Shown here: positions 36,001-42,000 of the stretch, piece after piece
Layout of the letters: each line of letters begins with the position of its first letter
Position numbering within the stretch: position 1 is the stretch's first letter
DNA from: a virus
Lineage: Duplodnaviria; Heunggongvirae; Uroviricota; Caudoviricetes
IMG/VR virus record: IMGVR_UViG_2802429244_000018
Coordinates: 1-46,327 of that record
Strand: one strand, 5' to 3'
DNA: 46,327 nucleotides
Program-made: the position numbers

Positions 36001-39000
36001 GTTCTTCAGGAACCTGAGTACAGGTATTGATGGTTTTGTTAAAGCCGTTGGTGGCGCTGGAAACGCATTGGGCATTCTTGCTGCCATGGCTCTTCTTAGC
36101 GGCAAAGGGTTAGGAAGCAAGCTGGGATTAATCGGGGCTGTTGGTATTTTTGGGCAGATGGTACAAGACCAGTATAAAGATGTTCCTGATGAGATGCGGC
36201 CATTCGCATTTCAGCAGCATTGGCTGGAAAGGCTCATTGGGATGGATTATGACGATCCAAATAAAGAGATTCCTCCTAACAAAAATGGTGTCAACAGGCC
36301 TGACAGAAACAATAACCCATTAAATCTTAAAGCTACTGGAAACAGAAGAAGAGACAAGGACGGATTTGCTCAATACTTCGACCCAGAAGAGGGCTGGGAG
36401 GCCGCTAGGAATCAACTGACTCTATACTACAAAAGAGATAAGCTTGATACATTGCAAGGGATAATAAGCAAGTGGGCACCATCCTCAGAAAACAACACAA
36501 AGGCGTATATTGACCAGGTTTCTAAGTCTATGGGCGTTGGTGCCAATGATAAGCTAAACCTCTCAGATCCAGAGGTTATGGCAAAACTTAGCGCCTATAT
36601 GGCTAGGCATGAAGGTTATCCAGATTGGAAGCGGGGTCTTGATTATGGTAACCCAACGAAAAATAGCAATGCCGCGTACTACCAAACCCAGCAAAGATTG
36701 GCTAATGGATCTGCAAACCAATCCTATGCCCAGAGCGTTGTTAACAATTACAACAGCCAGCACATAGGAGAGGTAAAGGTAATTGCCAAAACGGATCAAT
36801 CCTCAAAACTAACCGAAGGATTTAAGGAGTTGAATCGCAGATCATCAGTAAATCAGGCATTTTCAAGTGCAGTGCCTTAGCAGATTTGCTATTGACTAAT
36901 TTCCCGCATGAATGCAATTGTTTTTGCCATTTTCTCAGAGTGATCAATTGTCTCAACGAGAAATTTTCGTGCGGGAGATTGCTCATTCTCGCCTCGGAAT
37001 GTGGCGTTAATGTTTTGCATTGCTGCATTTTTCCACATGCTTACTTCTTCTATGGATTGCGATAATGATGCTGAAGATGCAGCGTCAAAGCATATACCAT
37101 ACGATGAATCTCGTATATCTGACGGTGACTTGCCAATAGCACTAAGTTGATTTCCATACTTTTTTACCATGTCGTTAGCCATATCCTGACAAACTTCATC
37201 AATGCTTTTACCCATGCCTGCAACATAAGGAGAAGCATCTTTTATTAAAGACATCATTTTTTCCTTATCTTTGTCGGATGCAGCATAAGCTGCGAGTGAT
37301 AGAAGAACGGAAGAAAATATTGCTATTGTGAAAAATCTGGATTTCATTCTTTCCCCTTGTAAATTTTCCTATGTTTGTATCCGTTAACTTAAGCAAAAGC
37401 ACGCAACACTCAGTTTTACGCAGGATACCAGATGAAATGGTCTTCAAAACTGGATGTCTTCAGCATCATCGCCAAAAACATTTTTATATGCATCTTGCCT
37501 TAAGCTCCTGAGAGCTTGATACATTTGCGAATGAGAACTGATGCTATCTAGTAAGTAGAAAATTGCTTTGATTAGCTCATTCTCCCACCGCTCAAACTCT
37601 TCTTTGTTTGATGGCCTATTCCCGGAAAGGTTTGAGTAAATCTTCATAATCCTTGAGTTATCAACCTCCGCAGGCACCGGAGACTTCAAGGCATCATCAA
37701 TGATAAACACTAGCTCTGTATTCATTGATCTGCCGTTTTCCTTTGCTCTTAAGGCTATAGCATCCCGCATTCCTGCCGGAAGCCTGATATTGAACCTATC
37801 CATTTCATGACTAGGGAACTTGCTCATATGACCTCAACGTAAAGATGTTCGCTAAACAATAGCACCAACTTGACATCAAAATAAATGGTGTTAAATTGGT
37901 TCTAGAACCAAGTTGGTATCATTGTGGGGGGATTACTTATGAAAGATGTGCTTTATACAGGTCGTAAAAGTCAAAGTTTCCAGCTTCGTTTGCCAGCGCA
38001 AATGAAGGAGGAGATTAGACGTGTTGCTGAAATGGATGGAATTTCTATCAACTCTGCGATTGTGCAGCGACTGGCTAAAAGCCTGAGAGAGGAAAGAGCT
38101 AATGCCCAGTAAAAATAGTGAAGCCCGGCAGTGCGCAAACACAAACCGGGCCTCTATGTCAGTAACCGTATGCAAGGAAACTAACATGAATATTGTAGCA
38201 AAATCAGATTACAACTTCCACGGAGTTGAGTTGGTGCCCACCCGTGATATGCATGGTGTTTGGTTTACATCATCTAATATTGCATCTGCACTTAAATACG
38301 CAAATAGTCGTGCAGTAACAATGATTTATAACAAGTATAGCGACGAGTTTAGCGCCGGAATGACTCAGGTACTCGAAGTGAGTACCTCAGGAAATTATCG
38401 CAAAAAAGTGCGAGTTTTCTCACTACGCGGTGCCCACCTAATCGCGATGTTTGCTCGCACTCCGGTAGCCAAAGAGTTCCGCCGCTGGGTGCTGGATATT
38501 TTGGATCGGCAGGCAGAATGCTCACCGATTGCAAAACAGTTTACTGACGAAGAACTGGTTAATCTCTGCTACTTACAATTGTGGATGGAGAAGAGTCAAC
38601 AAATGTGCAAACACATCTACCCAGGAATGAAGCAAATTGGTTCTGAGCTTTCAGGAAGGATTTACGATATTGCATATGAGACTCGCTACATGTCAGAAGA
38701 AACCAAGAAATCACTTCTTCGTGAAATGAAGAATCTTGATACCAACAATTTTGTCGTAAAGAACGCTCAGCCAATGCTGGCAAAACTTCGCGGCGAGGAA
38801 TGGATTCATTGATTGGTGCGCCGGACGGCGCAAAAAGAAAACCGCCAGTGTGCTGCTGGCGGCCTATGTCACACCCTTACTACCACATAAGGAATGCCTA
38901 ATGACTTTTAAGAATGTAGCAAACATCGGATCCGTTGTCACGGATAAAACCATTGATAGCCAGTACCTGTTAGAGATGGTCAATCATGCTCGTAGACAGT

Positions 39001-42000
39001 GTGGGGAAAAAGAAGTCCGCAATAACGACTTTATTGCACGCATTAAGGATGAACTTGAAGGTGAGCACTACGAAATTTTCGTAGTTCAAAAATCAAACAA
39101 GACAAGTTCTGAAAAAGTTGTTATGTCAATTAAGCAAGCCCTTCGAGTAGCTGCTCGTGAATCTAAAGCTGTTCGCCGCTCACTGGTAGACCAACTTGAA
39201 AGTATGCAAGAAGCGCACATTAAAAGCGGTAAATCAGCGAGTGGACTTGTTGAGTATCGTCAAGCGCGAACATTGAAAATGACGGTTGAAGCTGTTACCA
39301 ATCTGTTCGATTTGATGCCAAATCTTGCGCCGGAAGCAAAGCAGACTGCGGCCGCAAGCATAATCAACCCGATCGTTGGTTTTAATGCAATACCCCTTCC
39401 GGCAATAGAAGAGCATTACTACTCAGCAGGGGAGGTTGCAGAGCAGCTTGGAGTAACGGCAAACAAGATTGGTCGCATTGCTAACGCAAACAACCTCAAA
39501 ACTGAGCAGTACGGTAAGTTCTTCCTGGATAAATCTGCGCATTCCAGCAAACAGGTGGAAGCATTCCGCTACAATGCGGAAGGTGTTAAAGCACTACAAC
39601 ACCTGATTCATGGGAGTAATGTTGCATAATGGCAAAGAAAAAATATGGAATTATGCCGCCAAGAATCAAAGGAAGAGCCAGGGTAAAAGGCGATGCTGGG
39701 AGGTATCACATTCTTGGTGTTTTGTGGCATGAGAGATCTTTAATTTTAAGCAGACCTCATGGGTACATTGAAAAGGTATCTATAGATAGAATTGAGATTC
39801 TTCCCCTTACTCCTGAAGAAGAAGAAACGTACGGACTTTTTGATAACTAGCCAATTCACTAAACCCAGCTTCGGCTGGGTTTTTGTTTAATGGAGAGTAG
39901 ATGGGCATAATCGATTTAAACACAGCAGACATATTCAATGCTATCGGTGGTGGCTCTCCGCTTTCGATCATCGACAGCGTTCTGCATCCCCAGTATGTGA
40001 TTCGTGACAGGGAAACTGGCGAGGTTGCTCTTGAGTTCAGTGGTATGGCATCCGTACAGCCAAGCGGAAGGGCGCAAATAACAAACGCTCCGGTGGAGAA
40101 AGGGAAATACCAGTCCATCAACAAAGTTAAAGAACCCGCCAGAGTAAGATGTGCAATCATCGTAAATGGTCTTACTGGTTTTTCCGGCAATATCCCGAAT
40201 ATTTTCGATCTCACATTCACAAGCCAGAACAGCACGCTGAACACAATCAAAACGATGCTGTCCTCTGCAAAAACATACGATATTGAAACGCCAAAGGAAA
40301 CTCTGGAGAGTTTCGACCTTGTTGACCACTATTACGAAGTTAACTCTCAAAAAGGGGTGACTCTTCTGACGGTTTATCTTGATTTTCAGGAGGTCATTCA
40401 GCAAATGGAAGTTATTCTCTCTGGATCTCAGTCAGAACAGAAGCCAACGGATAACAATAAGTCACAGGGTGATGTAGGAGTTGATCCGCAAATAACCAAT
40501 GGCGGAGCCAGGGAATCTACTGTCGATGAGCTAAGTAAATCATGGTCATCACTGAAGTCATCTGTTGGCGAAATCACTGGAAAAATCTCCGGCACAATAA
40601 AGACTGAATTTCAGAGTGCTCTTGATACGGTGTCTAAACCAATACTCGAAGTTACAAACAGCGCAACAAAAAAAGCGGCAGATATTGCAAAAAATATAGT
40701 TAAGGCGAGTACATGATTACAGTATCTGTTCTTCCCAGCAAATCTCAGTCCATTTCGGTAAGTCTGGCTGGTCAGCAATGTAATATAAAACTTGTTCAGC
40801 GACAGAGTTTTATGTACATGGATTTAACTGTTAATGAAGTCCCAATTATGCAGGGCGTTCCATGTCTGTATGGGAATAAGATGGTAAGATATTCCTACCT
40901 TGGATTTAAGGGAGACCTTATTTTCATTGATAATGATGGGGAATCGGACCCGCAATGGGAAGGCTTGGGTAGCCGTTACTTGCTGTACTACATCGAGGAA
41001 AACGAGCTTGTATAAAAATCACAGTCTTCGGTTTGACTTCACGAATGAATCATCAGCATTTGATAAAAATGGAAACAATAAAATCTCCATCAGAAATGTT
41101 AAGTCAACAGTATCCCTGAACTTTGTTACCGGTCGGGGAGGTGCTCAGGCTGATATATCTCTTTACGGGTTAGGAATTGAAAGACTTGCTGATATATCAG
41201 GGAAGGCTGATGGTATTGTTGGGGAAGGTCAGAAGTTAAATGTTGAGGTATTTGCTGATGATTCTCTTGTTTTCTCCGGAACGATGCTTTCATCAATAGC
41301 AAACATGAATTCTGCTCCTGAAAGCAGTCTGATGATAACAGCCTCTTCTAATGTTGATTTACAGAACATGCCAGCAAGCCCGTTTACAGCGCAGGGTGCG
41401 CAAAGTGTTGAAGATGTCATCTCATCCATTTGTGCAAGTGCAGGTTATGAGGCTGTGTTTAATAATGTAAAAGGGATGACAACATCAGGAAGTCCGCATT
41501 TTGAAGGAAGTGTTTTTGAGCAACTTTATAGGGTCTGTTCAGATTATGGACTGGCGATGTCAGCCACGCCACCGACAAAAGTAGAGTTCTGGCCTTCAGA
41601 AAAAAACAGAGACGATGTAATTCCGTTTATATCCAGAGAATACGGACTTGTTGGATATCCTGTATTTTCAAATGGGGGACTGATGTTTCAGACGCAATAT
41701 TCATCTCTCCTTTGCATTGGAAGATATGTGGATATCAAAACAGAACTACCACATGCAAGCGGAAGGTATAAGTTAACCTCCGTTCGGCATGAATTATCAT
41801 CATGGATGCCAAATGGTTCATGGCACTCAATATGTATTGCCGCCAGAACAGCAGAACAAAGAGCAGAGGCACAACAGAATAATGGATAAGCACCTATTTA
41901 CTCCAACACCTGCTCAGGTAAGTGAGGCTCAATCTCAGGAATATATTTTTGAGATGCTGATGTCTGGATATTTCTTCATTGAGTTAGTGAGAGTTCAGGA

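What the first reader, a model, noticed from the sequence alone, without database searches (positions are those of the whole stretch)
36889..39888. P22 immI-like module (Mnt-like, Arc-like, antirepressor) inserted inside the tail gene cluster
Between the tape measure gene and the baseplate genes sits a self-contained block: a minus-strand Mnt/Arc-type RHH protein, a divergent promoter region with a perfect GGTTCTAGAACC palindrome nested in a larger inverted repeat, a plus-strand Arc-like RHH protein, an antirepressor, two unknown genes and a strong terminator. This mirrors the mnt / arc-ant architecture of P22 immI, placed here in a phage whose primary immunity is lambda cI. A second antirepressor-like gene sits near xis, so the prophage may carry two antirepressor circuits.
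Basis: partly seen in the sequence, partly recalled or inferred. Interest (0 to 1): 0.7.

Follow-up and report, generated by a model that had tools for sequence, protein, structure and literature searches.

The report
P22-type antirepressor cassette in tail genes
Between the tail genes of a lambda-immunity prophage sits a complete phage "second immunity" switch (two small repressors, antisense RNA, an anti-repressor protein); it is a common mobile cassette whose usual home is a tail-gene cluster, not a new kind of system.

Summary
A 127-aa Mnt-like and a 57-aa Arc-like ribbon-helix-helix protein are transcribed divergently from a 111-bp control region. An antirepressor (Bro-N + P22_AR_C), two more genes and a terminator follow.

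The cassette proper spans about 37436-39861. It is 93-98% identical in DNA to cassettes at the canonical immI site of P22-like E. coli prophages. Parts of it occur in 389 of 5426 complete E. coli genomes.

Relatives of the same module lie inside tail clusters of short-tailed, long-tailed and contractile-tailed lambdoid prophages. The arc-ant operon always runs in the same direction as the tail genes, so the tail-cluster position is the norm, published as the "ant moron".

New details:
- The conserved operator core is TTGGT-N6-ACCAA over the promoter -10/+1, and it co-varies with the Mnt-like protein.
- A sar-like antisense RNA lies opposite the ant start.
- A second, similar antisense cassette lies opposite the next gene (orf242), apparently undescribed.

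CI is about 94% identical to lambda CI, and a second antirepressor gene lies next to xis.

Verdict: real and correctly interpreted, but a new member of a known kind.

The parts
36889..37347 (-). 152-aa secreted (signal-peptide) helical protein. It is part of the prophage backbone, not of the antirepressor cassette. It occupies the position that sieA/orf59a hold next to mnt in P22.
   Evidence: ORF. No Pfam, PHROG, NCBIfam or PADLOC family. Only 29 homologous clusters, all Enterobacterales. AF2 five-helix bundle, pLDDT 87; no convincing fold match. Present in L007, L008 and L009 beside different cassettes. Backbone homology runs 35001-37435.
37444..37827 (-). Mnt-like repressor, 127 aa. N-terminal ribbon-helix-helix domain (residues ~8-53) plus an unrelated helical C-terminal domain. 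Proposed maintenance repressor of the ant promoter.
   Evidence: Pfam Arc 1.1e-16 and phrog_3178 1e-59. 50% identity to P22 Mnt over 42 aa, E = 3e-13, better than its match to Arc. Best PDB match is 1MNT. No hit to PF11423, which P22 Mnt hits. The full-length family occurs in E. coli, Yersinia, Cronobacter, Enterobacter, Rahnella and Serratia.
37828..37938 (.). Divergent control region. Rightward promoter: TTGACA (37870-75), 16-nt spacer, TGtTAAATT (extended -10, 37892-97). Operator core: TTGGT-N6-ACCAA (37896-37911). Extra ACCAA/TTGGT half-sites at 37864-68 and 37913-17. Inverted repeat TAGCACC / GGTGyTA at 37859-65 and 37887-93. Candidate leftward promoter: TTTATT, 18-nt spacer, TGcTATTGT (37885->37856).
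   Evidence: Footprint across 13 loci: TAGCACCwACTTGACA ... AAATGGTGnTAAATTGGT-N6-ACCAA is conserved while the flanks diverge. Loci with the same Arc but a different left repressor carry ATCAT-type half-sites at the same positions. There are 4 ACCAA/TTGGT copies in 111 bp against 0.21 expected.
37939..38112 (+). Arc-like repressor, 57 aa, first gene of the ant operon. Proposed negative autoregulator of the ant promoter.
   Evidence: Pfam Arc 3.6e-12. 42% identity to P22 Arc over 43 aa, E = 5.5e-10, better than its match to Mnt. Best PDB matches are Arc entries.
38108..38185 (-). sar-like antisense RNA (predicted). Its promoter has an extended -10, TGCTACAAT, at 38200->38192 inside the first codons of ant. 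The RNA covers the ant ribosome-binding site and ends at a hairpin plus U-run in the arc-ant gap.
   Evidence: It folds into the same two hairpins as P22 sar (-33.3 kcal/mol, z = -5.2, against -29.5, z = -5.1). Alignment with P22 shows conserved GAAGCCC...GGC.TC...GTCAGTAA...ATGA blocks. RNAalifold gives 19 pairs, 4 with compensatory changes. The -10 is in the same register as P22 Psar. Covariance model R1 finds it antisense at the arc-ant junction in 16 of 17 sources, 10 of them not used to build the model. Rfam sar RF00262 does not match it although it matches P22.
38186..38812 (+). Antirepressor, 208 aa: Bro-N N-terminal domain plus P22 antirepressor C-terminal domain.
   Evidence: Pfam Bro-N 1.9e-10 and P22_AR_C 2.8e-14. 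phrog_245 'anti-repressor Ant' 2.3e-53. Residues 119-187 align to P22 Ant 206-274 (29% identity, E = 3e-9). RefSeq annotates the same start in E. coli.
38830..38909 (-). Second sar-type antisense cassette (predicted). Promoter: GTGACA, 17-nt spacer, TGcTACATT (38941->38913) inside the first codons of orf242. The RNA covers the orf242 start codon and ribosome-binding site and ends at hairpin 38865->38839 plus UUUUCUUUUU.
   Evidence: Promoter and terminator were both found independently by the scan. Fold. The promoter, the anti-start GTCAT and the terminator are conserved upstream of Rha-type, ORF6N-type and orf242-type genes. Covariance model R2 finds it in all 15 sources that carry such a gene after ant or arc, and in none of the 6 that lack one.
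38901..39629 (+). orf242: KilA-N/Rha-like N-terminal domain, helical linker, and a MerR/Xis-type winged-helix C-terminal domain. It sits where relatives carry a Phage_pRha gene. Proposed second regulated effector; function unproven.
39629..39850 (+). orf73: small basic protein of unknown function, last gene of the operon.
   Evidence: phrog_4977 2e-53, function unknown. Present in the E. coli 55989, JEP4 and STEC299 cassettes.
39861..39882 (+). Intrinsic terminator ending the cassette. Its left arm is the right-hand recombination joint between cassette and backbone.
   Evidence: AAACCCAGC-TTCG-GCTGGGTTT followed by TTGTTT. Homology to P22-like prophages ends at 39871 and backbone homology resumes at 39862.
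1356..2009 (-). Second antirepressor-like gene (AntA + P22_AR_C), immediately upstream of xis and int in the leftward early direction.
   Evidence: Pfam AntA 1.6e-25 and P22_AR_C 1.8e-9. 36% identity to the cassette antirepressor over 143 aa.
11021..11734 (-). Lambda CI orthologue, the primary immunity repressor. It is the most likely target of the antirepressor (inferred).
   Evidence: HTH_3 + Peptidase_S24. About 94% identity to lambda repressor PDB 3BDN over 236 residues, E = 2.5e-150. Lambda-type Cro and CII lie adjacent.

Best explanation
This is a complete immI-type 'ant moron': a self-regulated antirepressor cassette of the P22 kind. It was acquired by recombination (about 37436-39861) into the junction between the tape-measure and baseplate genes of a lambda-immunity prophage with a contractile tail.

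Proposed working:
1. In the lysogen, the leftward 127-aa Mnt-like repressor binds TTGGT-N6-ACCAA, which overlaps the -10/+1 of the rightward promoter. It probably also binds the extra half-site beside the -35. This keeps arc-ant-orf242-orf73 silent.
2. When the DNA enters a cell without that repressor, or if the repressor is lost, the near-consensus promoter fires.
3. The antirepressor (Bro-N + P22_AR_C) then binds CI-type repressors without cleaving them. The candidates are the phage's own lambda CI and those of resident lambdoid prophages.
4. The Arc-like protein, made from the same transcript, then shuts the promoter down.
5. Two short antisense RNAs, started from extended -10 promoters inside the first codons of ant and of orf242, pair with the ribosome-binding sites. 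They block translation once rightward transcription falls.
6. The cassette runs in the same direction as the tail genes, and its repressor gene is antisense to them. Antiterminated late transcription can therefore pass through to the baseplate genes, as in P22.

Shown by computation: gene identities, homology to P22 immI parts, near-identity to cassettes of P22-like prophages, conservation of promoter, operator and antisense elements, and co-variation of the operator with the left repressor.

Inferred: who binds what, the antirepressor's target, the timing, and the existence of the two RNAs.
For: - Domains and reciprocal best matches to Mnt, Arc and Ant.
- Gene order and divergent layout match annotated P22 immI.
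- 93-98% DNA identity to cassettes between the ejection-protein and tailspike genes of P22-like E. coli prophages and phage JEP4.
- The same prophage backbone carries other antirepressor cassettes, or only a P63C gene, at the same junction.
- Relatives of the module lie in tail clusters of lambda-like, HK97-like, ES18-like and contractile-tail prophages, always co-oriented with the tail genes.
- The promoter is 10/12 to consensus with an extended -10.
- The TTGGT-N6-ACCAA footprint is conserved, and ATCAT half-sites replace it where the left repressor's beta-strand changes from RFNIRLP to RFTVRMP while Arc stays the same.
- sar-like RNA: fold, covariation, promoter register and covariance-model hits.
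- Second antisense cassette.
- Published 'ant moron' concept and the description of immI as lying inside the late operon (PMC2629481; PMC8022706).
- P22 Ant is reported as effective against lambda CI (PMC3064807, citing Susskind and Botstein 1975).
- The resident repressor is about 94% identical to lambda CI.
Against: - No experiment exists on this cassette.
- The Mnt-like protein lacks the Mnt tetramerisation domain PF11423, so its oligomeric state is unknown.
- The antirepressor's N-terminal domain is Bro-N, not P22_AR_N, and which domain contacts repressors is unknown. Activity on lambda CI is therefore extrapolated.
- The operators differ in sequence and spacing from P22 Omnt and Oarc.
- I could not identify the Arc-like protein's operator. 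The same Arc occurs with two quite different control regions, which sits poorly with a simple P22-like Oarc.
- Rfam's sar model does not recognise the antisense element.
- The leftward promoter is weak by consensus.
- The Phi24B antirepressor, which shares this C-terminal domain, had no effect on superinfection in experiments (PMC3064807).
Confidence: 0.85

Rival explanations
1. The cassette works mainly as an inter-phage weapon or crosstalk device. Its antirepressor, and possibly orf242, target the repressors of other resident lambdoid prophages or of an immune host, rather than this phage's own CI. The own-CI circuit would be served by the early antirepressor next to xis.
For: - The cassette moves freely between phages with unrelated immunity regions: P22-like, ES18-like, lambda-like and contractile-tail types. 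A strictly cognate repressor target is therefore unlikely.
- Trans-acting antirepressors that coordinate induction of several prophages are documented in Salmonella (PMC3121763).
- P22 Ant acts on heterologous repressors.
- A separate antirepressor sits in the early-left region.
Against: Broad specificity would include the resident lambda CI anyway, so this overlaps the main explanation. No target data exist.
Confidence: 0.3
2. The Bro-N/KilA-N-type proteins (208 aa and 242 aa) are not antirepressors. They are DNA-binding regulators or anti-host/anti-defence factors. The RHH pair and the antisense RNAs simply keep potentially toxic genes silent in the lysogen.
For: - Bro-N and KilA-N are generic DNA-binding modules.
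- orf242 has a MerR/Xis-like winged helix.
- The PHROG 'anti-repressor' labels are annotations, not tests.
- L023 has arc followed directly by the second antisense cassette and a Rha gene, with no ant at all.
Against: The 208-aa protein carries the P22 antirepressor C-terminal domain above Pfam's threshold. It occupies the ant slot of a cassette otherwise homologous to immI. No PADLOC defence family matches convincingly.
Confidence: 0.15
3. The cassette is an inert passenger in this prophage: a recombination scar with no role in its life cycle.
For: - The module is mosaic and often partly degraded elsewhere: a truncated Arc-family pseudogene in L010-L012, a truncated antirepressor in L009, and IS insertions in some genomes.
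- Degraded ant morons are described in PMC2629481.
Against: Here all five reading frames are intact. The promoter, the operator and both antisense cassettes match the conserved consensus.
Confidence: 0.08
4. The two RHH proteins are a toxin-antitoxin or plasmid-partition (ParG/CopG-like) pair, unrelated to antirepression.
For: Weak sub-threshold hits to FitA-like, HicB and RHH_5 families, and PHROG families labelled 'partition protein ATPase'.
Against: - No toxin or ParA gene is adjacent.
- The best matches are Mnt and Arc.
- The same PHROG label is attached to P22 mnt itself in the P22 record, so it is an annotation artefact.
Confidence: 0.02

Closest known systems
Salmonella phage P22 immI region (mnt, arc, ant, sar; Pant/Pmnt, Oarc, Omnt)
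   Same: - A divergent Mnt-type and Arc-type RHH pair around one control region.
- Arc is the first gene of the antirepressor operon.
- An operator palindrome lies just after the -10.
- An antisense RNA starts inside the first codons of ant and ends at a hairpin in the arc-ant gap.
- The module lies inside the late (virion) operon, co-oriented with it.
- The Ant C-terminal domain is shared.
   Different: - Protein identity is only 29-50% and limited to domains.
- The Mnt C-terminal domain is replaced by an unrelated one.
- The Ant N-terminal domain is Bro-N.
- Operator sequences differ (TTGGT-N6-ACCAA against GGTCCAC-G-GTGGACC).
- There are two extra genes and a second antisense cassette.
- There is no sieA.
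- The host phage has lambda immunity and a contractile tail.
The 'ant moron' of P22-like phages and prophages (Villafane et al. 2008, PMC2629481), in particular the cassette of E. coli 55989, MB06231 and phage JEP4
   Same: The same cassette at 93-98% nucleotide identity: the same Arc, antirepressor, orf242 and orf73. In MB06231 the 127-aa repressor and control region are the same as well.
   Different: In those phages it lies between the gene-16-type ejection protein and the tailspike of a podovirus, followed by an extra true Mnt-like gene. Here it lies between the tape measure and the baseplate of a contractile-tail prophage.
Arc/Ant cassettes in ES18-like siphoviruses (Salmonella phages vB_SosS_Oslo, SPN3UB)
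   Same: The same 125-127-aa repressor family, Arc and control region (75% nucleotide identity). They lie inside the tail cluster, between the tail chaperone and the tape measure.
   Different: The antirepressor is P22-type (P22_AR_N-like), and there is no orf242, orf73 or second antisense cassette.
LexA-controlled antirepressors (Gifsy prophages, N15 AntC; PMC3121763)
   Same: The outcome is the same: a small protein inactivates a CI-type repressor without cleavage, and can act in trans on other prophages.
   Different: Those are switched on by SOS through a LexA box. No LexA box is present here; control is by phage-encoded RHH repressors and antisense RNA.
Phage P1/P7 immI (c4 antisense RNA, icd, ant) - recalled from my own knowledge, not tested here
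   Same: An antirepressor operon held off by antisense RNA.
   Different: There are no RHH repressors, the RNA acts differently, and the genes are unrelated.

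Membership tests
P22-type immI / ant moron | Mnt-type ribbon-helix-helix repressor transcribed divergently from the ant operon | tested here: met
   37444-37827 (-). Pfam Arc 1.1e-16. 50% identity to the Mnt RHH domain, E = 3e-13, better than to Arc. Best PDB match is 1MNT.
P22-type immI / ant moron | Arc-type RHH repressor as first gene of the antirepressor operon | tested here: met
   37939-38112 (+). Pfam Arc 3.6e-12. 42% identity to P22 Arc, better than to Mnt. Best PDB matches are Arc entries.
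P22-type immI / ant moron | Antirepressor with the P22 antirepressor C-terminal domain (PF10548) | tested here: met
   P22_AR_C 2.8e-14, 53.4 bits against a cutoff of 22.4. Aligns to P22 Ant residues 206-274.
P22-type immI / ant moron | P22 antirepressor N-terminal domain (PF10547) | tested here: not met
   The N-terminal domain is Bro-N (PF02498), with no PF10547 hit. Relatives of the cassette swap Bro-N, P22_AR_N and ORF6N in this position.
P22-type immI / ant moron | sar antisense RNA opposite the ant ribosome-binding site | tested here: inconclusive
   Rfam RF00262 gives no match at E <= 5 although it scores 97.8 bits on P22. However, the position, promoter register, two-hairpin fold, partial sequence conservation and 4 compensatory pairs all match. 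A model that includes P22 finds the element in 10 independent loci. Transcription was not tested.
P22-type immI / ant moron | Operators overlapping a strong rightward promoter and an overlapping leftward promoter | tested here: inconclusive
   The rightward promoter is 10/12 to consensus with an extended -10, and a conserved palindrome overlaps its -10/+1. The leftward promoter candidate is weak. Operator sequences are unlike Omnt and Oarc. Protein binding cannot be tested with these tools.
P22-type immI / ant moron | Independently regulated insert inside the late/virion operon, variable between related phages (the moron criterion) | tested here: met
   The same backbone carries five different contents at this junction. 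The cassette is co-oriented with the tail genes in all 20 related loci inspected, and in P22 itself.
P22-type immI / ant moron | The antirepressor inactivates the prophage repressor | not testable with these tools
   Only indirect evidence: P22 Ant is reported as active on lambda CI (PMC3064807), and the resident CI is about 94% identical to lambda CI.
Mnt repressor family (whole protein) | C-terminal tetramerisation domain (Pfam Repressor_Mnt, PF11423) | tested here: not met
   P22 Mnt hits PF11423 at 1.6e-20. The 127-aa protein does not, and similarity to Mnt stops at about residue 53.
LexA/SOS-controlled antirepressor modules | LexA box at the antirepressor promoter | tested here: not met
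   No CTG-N10-CAG site with at least 11/16 matches to consensus lies in or near the cassette. The only two in the window are at 31733 and 33426.

The most novel reading that the evidence does not exclude
The cassette family is more elaborate and more rule-bound than the P22 paradigm in two ways.

1. It carries a second sar-type antisense RNA, apparently undescribed, that guards a Rha/KilA-like second effector. That effector would then be another lysogeny-threatening protein.
2. The whole module is a mobile unit specific to tail operons. It moves between the late operons of podo-, sipho- and myovirus-type lambdoids, recombining at short joints such as the terminator hairpin, and is always co-oriented with the tail genes.

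In this prophage, the cassette together with the early antirepressor next to xis would form a network of two or three effectors aimed at lambda-type CI repressors, including those of co-resident prophages.
Probability: 0.3. Interest if true: 0.5.

Novelty: new member of a known kind. Interest (0 to 1): 0.3.

Why it matters
As a discovery it matters little. immI-type antirepressor cassettes ('ant morons') are textbook P22 biology, and this copy is nearly identical to ones in hundreds of E. coli genomes.

It is useful in three smaller ways:
- **Mobility.** It shows the same cassette moving between phages with three different tail types and unrelated immunity regions, always landing in the tail operon. 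That supports treating it as an autonomous mobile regulatory unit.
- **A tractable test.** It places a P22-type antirepressor in a phage whose repressor is essentially lambda CI. This gives a convenient system for asking what such antirepressors recognise.
- **Testable predictions.** The comparison yields a TTGGT-N6-ACCAA operator that changes together with the repressor's beta-strand, and a second conserved antisense RNA in front of the Rha-like gene.

If antirepressors from such cassettes act in trans, they affect prophage induction and therefore gene transfer in polylysogenic enterobacteria.

Tried and rejected
- **Palindrome as evidence by itself:** rejected. 12-bp palindromes occur at the chance rate in the window.
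- **The whole interval 36889-39888 as one unit:** rejected. The 152-aa gene belongs to the backbone.
- **Toxin-antitoxin, partition or defence-system readings:** no toxin, ParA or convincing PADLOC match.
- **SOS control:** no LexA box.
- **Rfam:** no family at or near threshold. The only hit was a chance-level SymR match (E = 0.59) on the sar-like element.
- **Assigning the Arc-like protein's operator:** failed. I compared loci with the same Arc and a different left repressor (L010-L012), and with the same left repressor and a different Arc (L018). The control region travels with the left repressor. Only short shared motifs remain (TAGCA, AATGG, TCATT), which could be promoter context or shared ancestry.
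- **Sequence searches of solved structures** for the antirepressor and orf242: nothing usable.
- **Fold search for the secreted 152-aa protein:** only generic helical bundles with high rmsd. My guess that it might resemble T4 Spackle-type exclusion proteins found no support.
- **Looking for the tail module among sequenced phages:** no nucleotide-level relative, only a 70% match to a Vibrio phage over 3.2 kb.
- **Covariation in the second antisense terminator:** none under the automatic alignment. Support for that RNA rests on conservation and co-occurrence.

Full report
**What is in the interval**

Reading 36700-40100 with the ORF list gives the following layout.

| Coordinates | Strand | Feature |
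|---|---|---|
| 35105-36880 | + | 591-aa tape-measure/lytic tail protein (PHROG tail-lysin and tape-measure families) |
| 36889-37347 | - | 152-aa protein with a signal peptide |
| 37444-37827 | - | 127-aa RHH protein |
| 37828-37938 | . | 111-bp intergenic control region |
| 37939-38112 | + | 57-aa RHH protein |
| 38186-38812 | + | 208-aa protein |
| 38901-39629 | + | 242-aa protein |
| 39629-39850 | + | 73-aa protein |
| 39861-39882 | + | terminator hairpin |
| 39901- | + | first baseplate gene (Dit-like) |

- Pfam places both small proteins in the Arc-like RHH family (1.1e-16 and 3.6e-12).
- Pfam gives the 208-aa protein a Bro-N domain and a P22 antirepressor C-terminal domain.
- PHROGs labels the 208-aa and 242-aa proteins 'anti-repressor' and the 73-aa protein unknown.
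It lies within 20-nt arms that are 75% complementary.
- It begins inside the -10 of the best promoter match in the region: TTGACA, 16-nt spacer, TAAATT, with an upstream TG.

The one omission is the 152-aa gene, which is not an RHH gene.

**Is it more than chance?**

The palindrome alone is not. The window holds 13 perfect palindromes of 12 bp or more against 12.4 expected, and 2 of 16 bp against 0.75 expected. The promoter scan is also not enriched overall. The case therefore rests on homology, position and conservation.

**Direct comparison with P22 immI**

I fetched the annotated P22 genome and compared proteins.

- The 127-aa protein matches Mnt best: 50% identity over the 42-residue RHH domain, E = 3e-13, against 7e-7 for Arc.
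- The 57-aa protein matches Arc best: 42% over 43 residues, E = 5.5e-10, against 1e-6 for Mnt.
- Searches of solved structures agree. 1MNT is the top hit for the first protein and Arc entries for the second.
- The 208-aa protein aligns to P22 Ant only in its C-terminal domain (residues 119-187 against 206-274).
- As a control, P22 Mnt hits both PF03869 and the Mnt C-terminal tetramerisation family PF11423. The 127-aa protein hits only the first. It is therefore Mnt-like in its DNA-binding domain and genomic role, not a whole-protein member of the family.
- The control regions are laid out alike. In P22, Pant is TTGACA-17-TATATT, with Oarc in the spacer and the symmetric Omnt just after the -10. 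Here the symmetric element also sits just after, and overlapping, the -10.

**Where else the DNA occurs**

- Parts of the 3.4-kb interval match 389 of 5426 complete E. coli genomes and 11 phage records. None covers 80% of it.
- The best matches are P22-like prophages (E. coli 55989, MB06231) and phage JEP4. There the same Arc-antirepressor-orf242-orf73 block, 93-98% identical, lies between the gene-16-type ejection protein and the tailspike. That is the canonical immI site.
- MB06231 also has the same 127-aa repressor and control region.
- Local BLAST fixes the joints. Backbone homology to related prophages runs to 37435 and resumes at 39862. Homology to P22-like prophages runs 37409-39871. 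The two overlap by 27 nt on the left and 10 nt on the right, the latter being the left arm of the terminator.
- The cassette proper is therefore about 37436-39861, and the 152-aa gene belongs to the backbone.

**The junction is a variable slot**

Only about ten E. coli genomes carry this tail module, and no sequenced phage matches it at nucleotide level. Among the genomes that do, the junction between tape measure and baseplate holds different contents:

- a helix-turn-helix repressor, a different small RHH protein and the same antirepressor block (STEC299);
- a P63C gene plus a different Arc/Ant set (WS4437A-1);
- a P63C gene alone (SC407);
- a DUF2513/Arc/YlcI set with a truncated antirepressor.

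This meets the published definition of a moron, and specifically the 'ant moron' of P22-like phages. [quoted passage not shown]

**The tail-cluster position is the rule**

Homologues of the full-length 127-aa repressor occur in E. coli, Yersinia, Cronobacter, Enterobacter, Rahnella and Serratia. I looked up the contigs that encode seven of them. In every case the repressor/Arc/antirepressor module lies inside a tail cluster:

- between tail chaperones G/T and the tape measure (L014);
- after the tape measure (L015, L020, L021);
- between lambda K-like and I-like genes (L013, L023);
- in ES18-like clusters (L016, L022, and phage Oslo);
- between baseplate genes of a contractile tail of the same general type as this window's (L017-L019).

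The repressor in L017-L019 is listed in over a thousand blocks of the collection. In all 20 related loci, and in P22 itself, the arc-ant operon runs with the tail genes and the repressor gene runs against them.

**Operators**

Aligning the control regions of 13 loci gives a clear footprint. The repressors in these loci are 42-98% identical over the whole protein. Conserved blocks are TAGCACC(A/T)ACTTGACA, then AAATGGTGnTAAATTGGT, six variable bases, then ACCAA. The flanks diverge.

- The conserved operator core is TTGGT-N6-ACCAA, not the full palindrome. Its half-site centres are 11 bp apart, one helical turn. From general knowledge of Arc and Mnt, that spacing suits a dimer of RHH dimers.
- The window has four ACCAA/TTGGT copies in 111 bp against 0.21 expected.
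- A natural comparison helps. P22-like prophages L010-L012 carry an Arc with the same beta-strand and nearly the same sequence overall. Their left repressor has a beta-strand reading RFTVRMP instead of RFNIRLP.
- Their control region aligns base for base with this one, but has ATCAT/ATGAT-type half-sites where this one has ACCAA/TTGGT.
- This co-variation assigns the ACCAA/TTGGT sites to the Mnt-like repressor. That is an inference, not a binding test.
- I could not assign the Arc-like protein's operator. The control region travels with the left repressor both in that comparison and in L018, which has the same left repressor and a different Arc.
- There is no LexA box, so this is not an SOS-triggered antirepressor of the Gifsy/N15 kind.

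**A sar-like antisense RNA**

- The arc-ant gap aligns with that of P22. A GAAGCCC...GGC.TC hairpin, GTCAGTAA, the ribosome-binding site and ATGA are conserved.
- On the minus strand the hairpin is followed by a U-run.
- Inside the first codons of ant there is an extended -10, TGCTACAAT, in exactly the register of P22 Psar (ATG+6 to +11).
- The predicted RNA (38185->~38113) folds into the same two hairpins as P22 sar, with similar stability and z-score.
- A seven-locus alignment gives 19 pairs, four with compensatory changes.
- A covariance model built from it finds the element, antisense at the arc-ant junction, in 16 of 17 sources, ten of them not used to build it.
- Rfam's own sar model scores 97.8 bits on P22 but does not reach E = 5 here.
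- I therefore call it sar-like: membership by Rfam's criterion is not met, while position and structure match.

**A second antisense cassette**

- The generic scan had already flagged a minus-strand promoter (GTGACA-17-TACATT with an upstream TG, 38941->38913). It also flagged a minus-strand terminator (38865->38839 plus UUUUCUUUUU).
- Together they would give an RNA of about 75 nt covering the start codon and ribosome-binding site of orf242.
- The promoter, the anti-start GTCAT and the terminator are conserved in other loci in front of genes of three types: orf242-like, Phage_pRha and ORF6N.
- Two promoter positions, the T of the TG and the first T of the -10, fall on third codon positions on the sense strand and are invariant.
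- A second covariance model finds the element in all 15 sources that have such a gene after ant. It finds it in none of the six that lack one, including P22.
- One locus (L023) has arc followed directly by this element and a Rha gene, with no ant.
- No compensatory changes were seen and transcription is untested, so this is a well-supported prediction only.
- I did not find it described in the papers I read. I did not run a dedicated literature search for it.

**The two 'unknown' genes**

- orf242 has 2101 homologues in Enterobacterales, nearly all unnamed.
- Its AF2 model (pLDDT 72) shows three parts: an N-terminal alpha/beta domain, a helical linker, and a C-terminal winged helix.
- With its position in the Rha slot, this makes it a Rha/KilA-like DNA-binding protein. 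Whether it is an antirepressor is unknown.
- orf73 remains unknown.

**The rest of the prophage**

- The repressor at 11021-11734 is about 94% identical to lambda CI.
- Cro, CII, Int (with the lambda arm-binding domain) and Xis are lambda-type.
- The gene at 1356-2009, just upstream of xis, is an AntA + P22_AR_C protein, 36% identical to the cassette antirepressor over 143 residues.
- The virion genes, by contrast, encode a contractile tail: a DUF3383 sheath, an E217-type tube and Baseplate_J.
- P22 Ant is reported to inactivate lambda CI as well as P22 C2 (PMC3064807, citing Susskind and Botstein 1975). The resident CI is therefore a plausible target. However, that paper found no effect of the related Phi24B antirepressor on superinfection.

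**Verdict**

It is a new member of a known kind: an immI-type ant moron, near-identical to copies in many E. coli prophages, sitting where such cassettes normally sit. What the comparison adds is modest. It gives the operator core and its co-variation with the repressor, the conserved sar-like RNA, and a probable second antisense RNA in front of a Rha-like gene. It also shows that the module keeps to tail operons across three tail types. Interest 0.3.

Noticed in passing
window 36889-37347 (-): A 152-aa signal-peptide protein lies directly after the tape-measure/lysin gene, in the position sieA holds next to mnt in P22. It has a confident five-helix AF2 model (pLDDT 87), two conserved cysteines, only 29 homologous clusters (all Enterobacterales), and no family or fold match. 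It could be a lysogenic-conversion or exclusion protein; its function is unknown.
   Followed up: partly
window 38830-38941 (-); also L001, L002, L004, L005, L007, L010, L014, L016, L017, L019-L023: There is a conserved second antisense cassette: a promoter inside the first codons of the gene after ant, plus a terminator in the preceding gap. It is present wherever a Rha, orf242 or ORF6N gene follows ant or arc, and absent from P22. It looks like a duplicate of the sar arrangement.
   Followed up: yes
window 1356-2009 (-): A second antirepressor (AntA + P22_AR_C) sits immediately upstream of xis and int in the leftward early direction. It would be made only after CI repression is lifted, which suggests a positive-feedback role. 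Its regulation was not examined.
   Followed up: partly
whole window (1-46327): The prophage is a hybrid. It has lambda CI, Cro, CII, Int and Xis (CI about 94% identical to lambda CI), joined to a contractile-tail virion module (DUF3383 sheath, E217-type tube, Baseplate_J). No phage record matches that tail module at nucleotide level, and only about ten of 5426 complete E. coli genomes carry it.
   Followed up: partly
L001 9152-9406, L002 8768-9025, L005 9468-9722, L010 5420-5674: P22-like E. coli prophages that carry this cassette have an additional 84-85-aa gene, closer to true Mnt (SKPSPVSGYR motif), downstream of the cassette and divergent from the tailspike gene. The window lacks it. Its target is unclear.
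   Followed up: no
L023 2849-3884: A Yersinia locus has the repressor and Arc followed directly by the second antisense element and a Rha gene, with no antirepressor gene. This suggests the Rha-like protein can be the sole regulated cargo.
   Followed up: no
window 32054-32069: The only other 16-bp perfect palindrome in the window, TCGATAATATTATCGA, lies within the ORF just upstream of the sheath gene. It is unexplained and may be chance (0.75 expected per window).
   Followed up: no
window 10266-11013 (-): Two ORFs (145 aa and 107 aa) lie directly downstream of cI, where lambda has rexA and rexB. The 145-aa protein has no Pfam family; the 107-aa protein was not searched. They may be prophage-expressed accessory or defence genes.
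   Followed up: no
window 38102-38185: An in-frame ATG at 38102, overlapping the arc stop codon, would extend the antirepressor by 28 residues. Gene callers use such extended starts in several related loci. The sar-like element and the RefSeq annotation in E. coli favour the 38186 start.
   Followed up: partly
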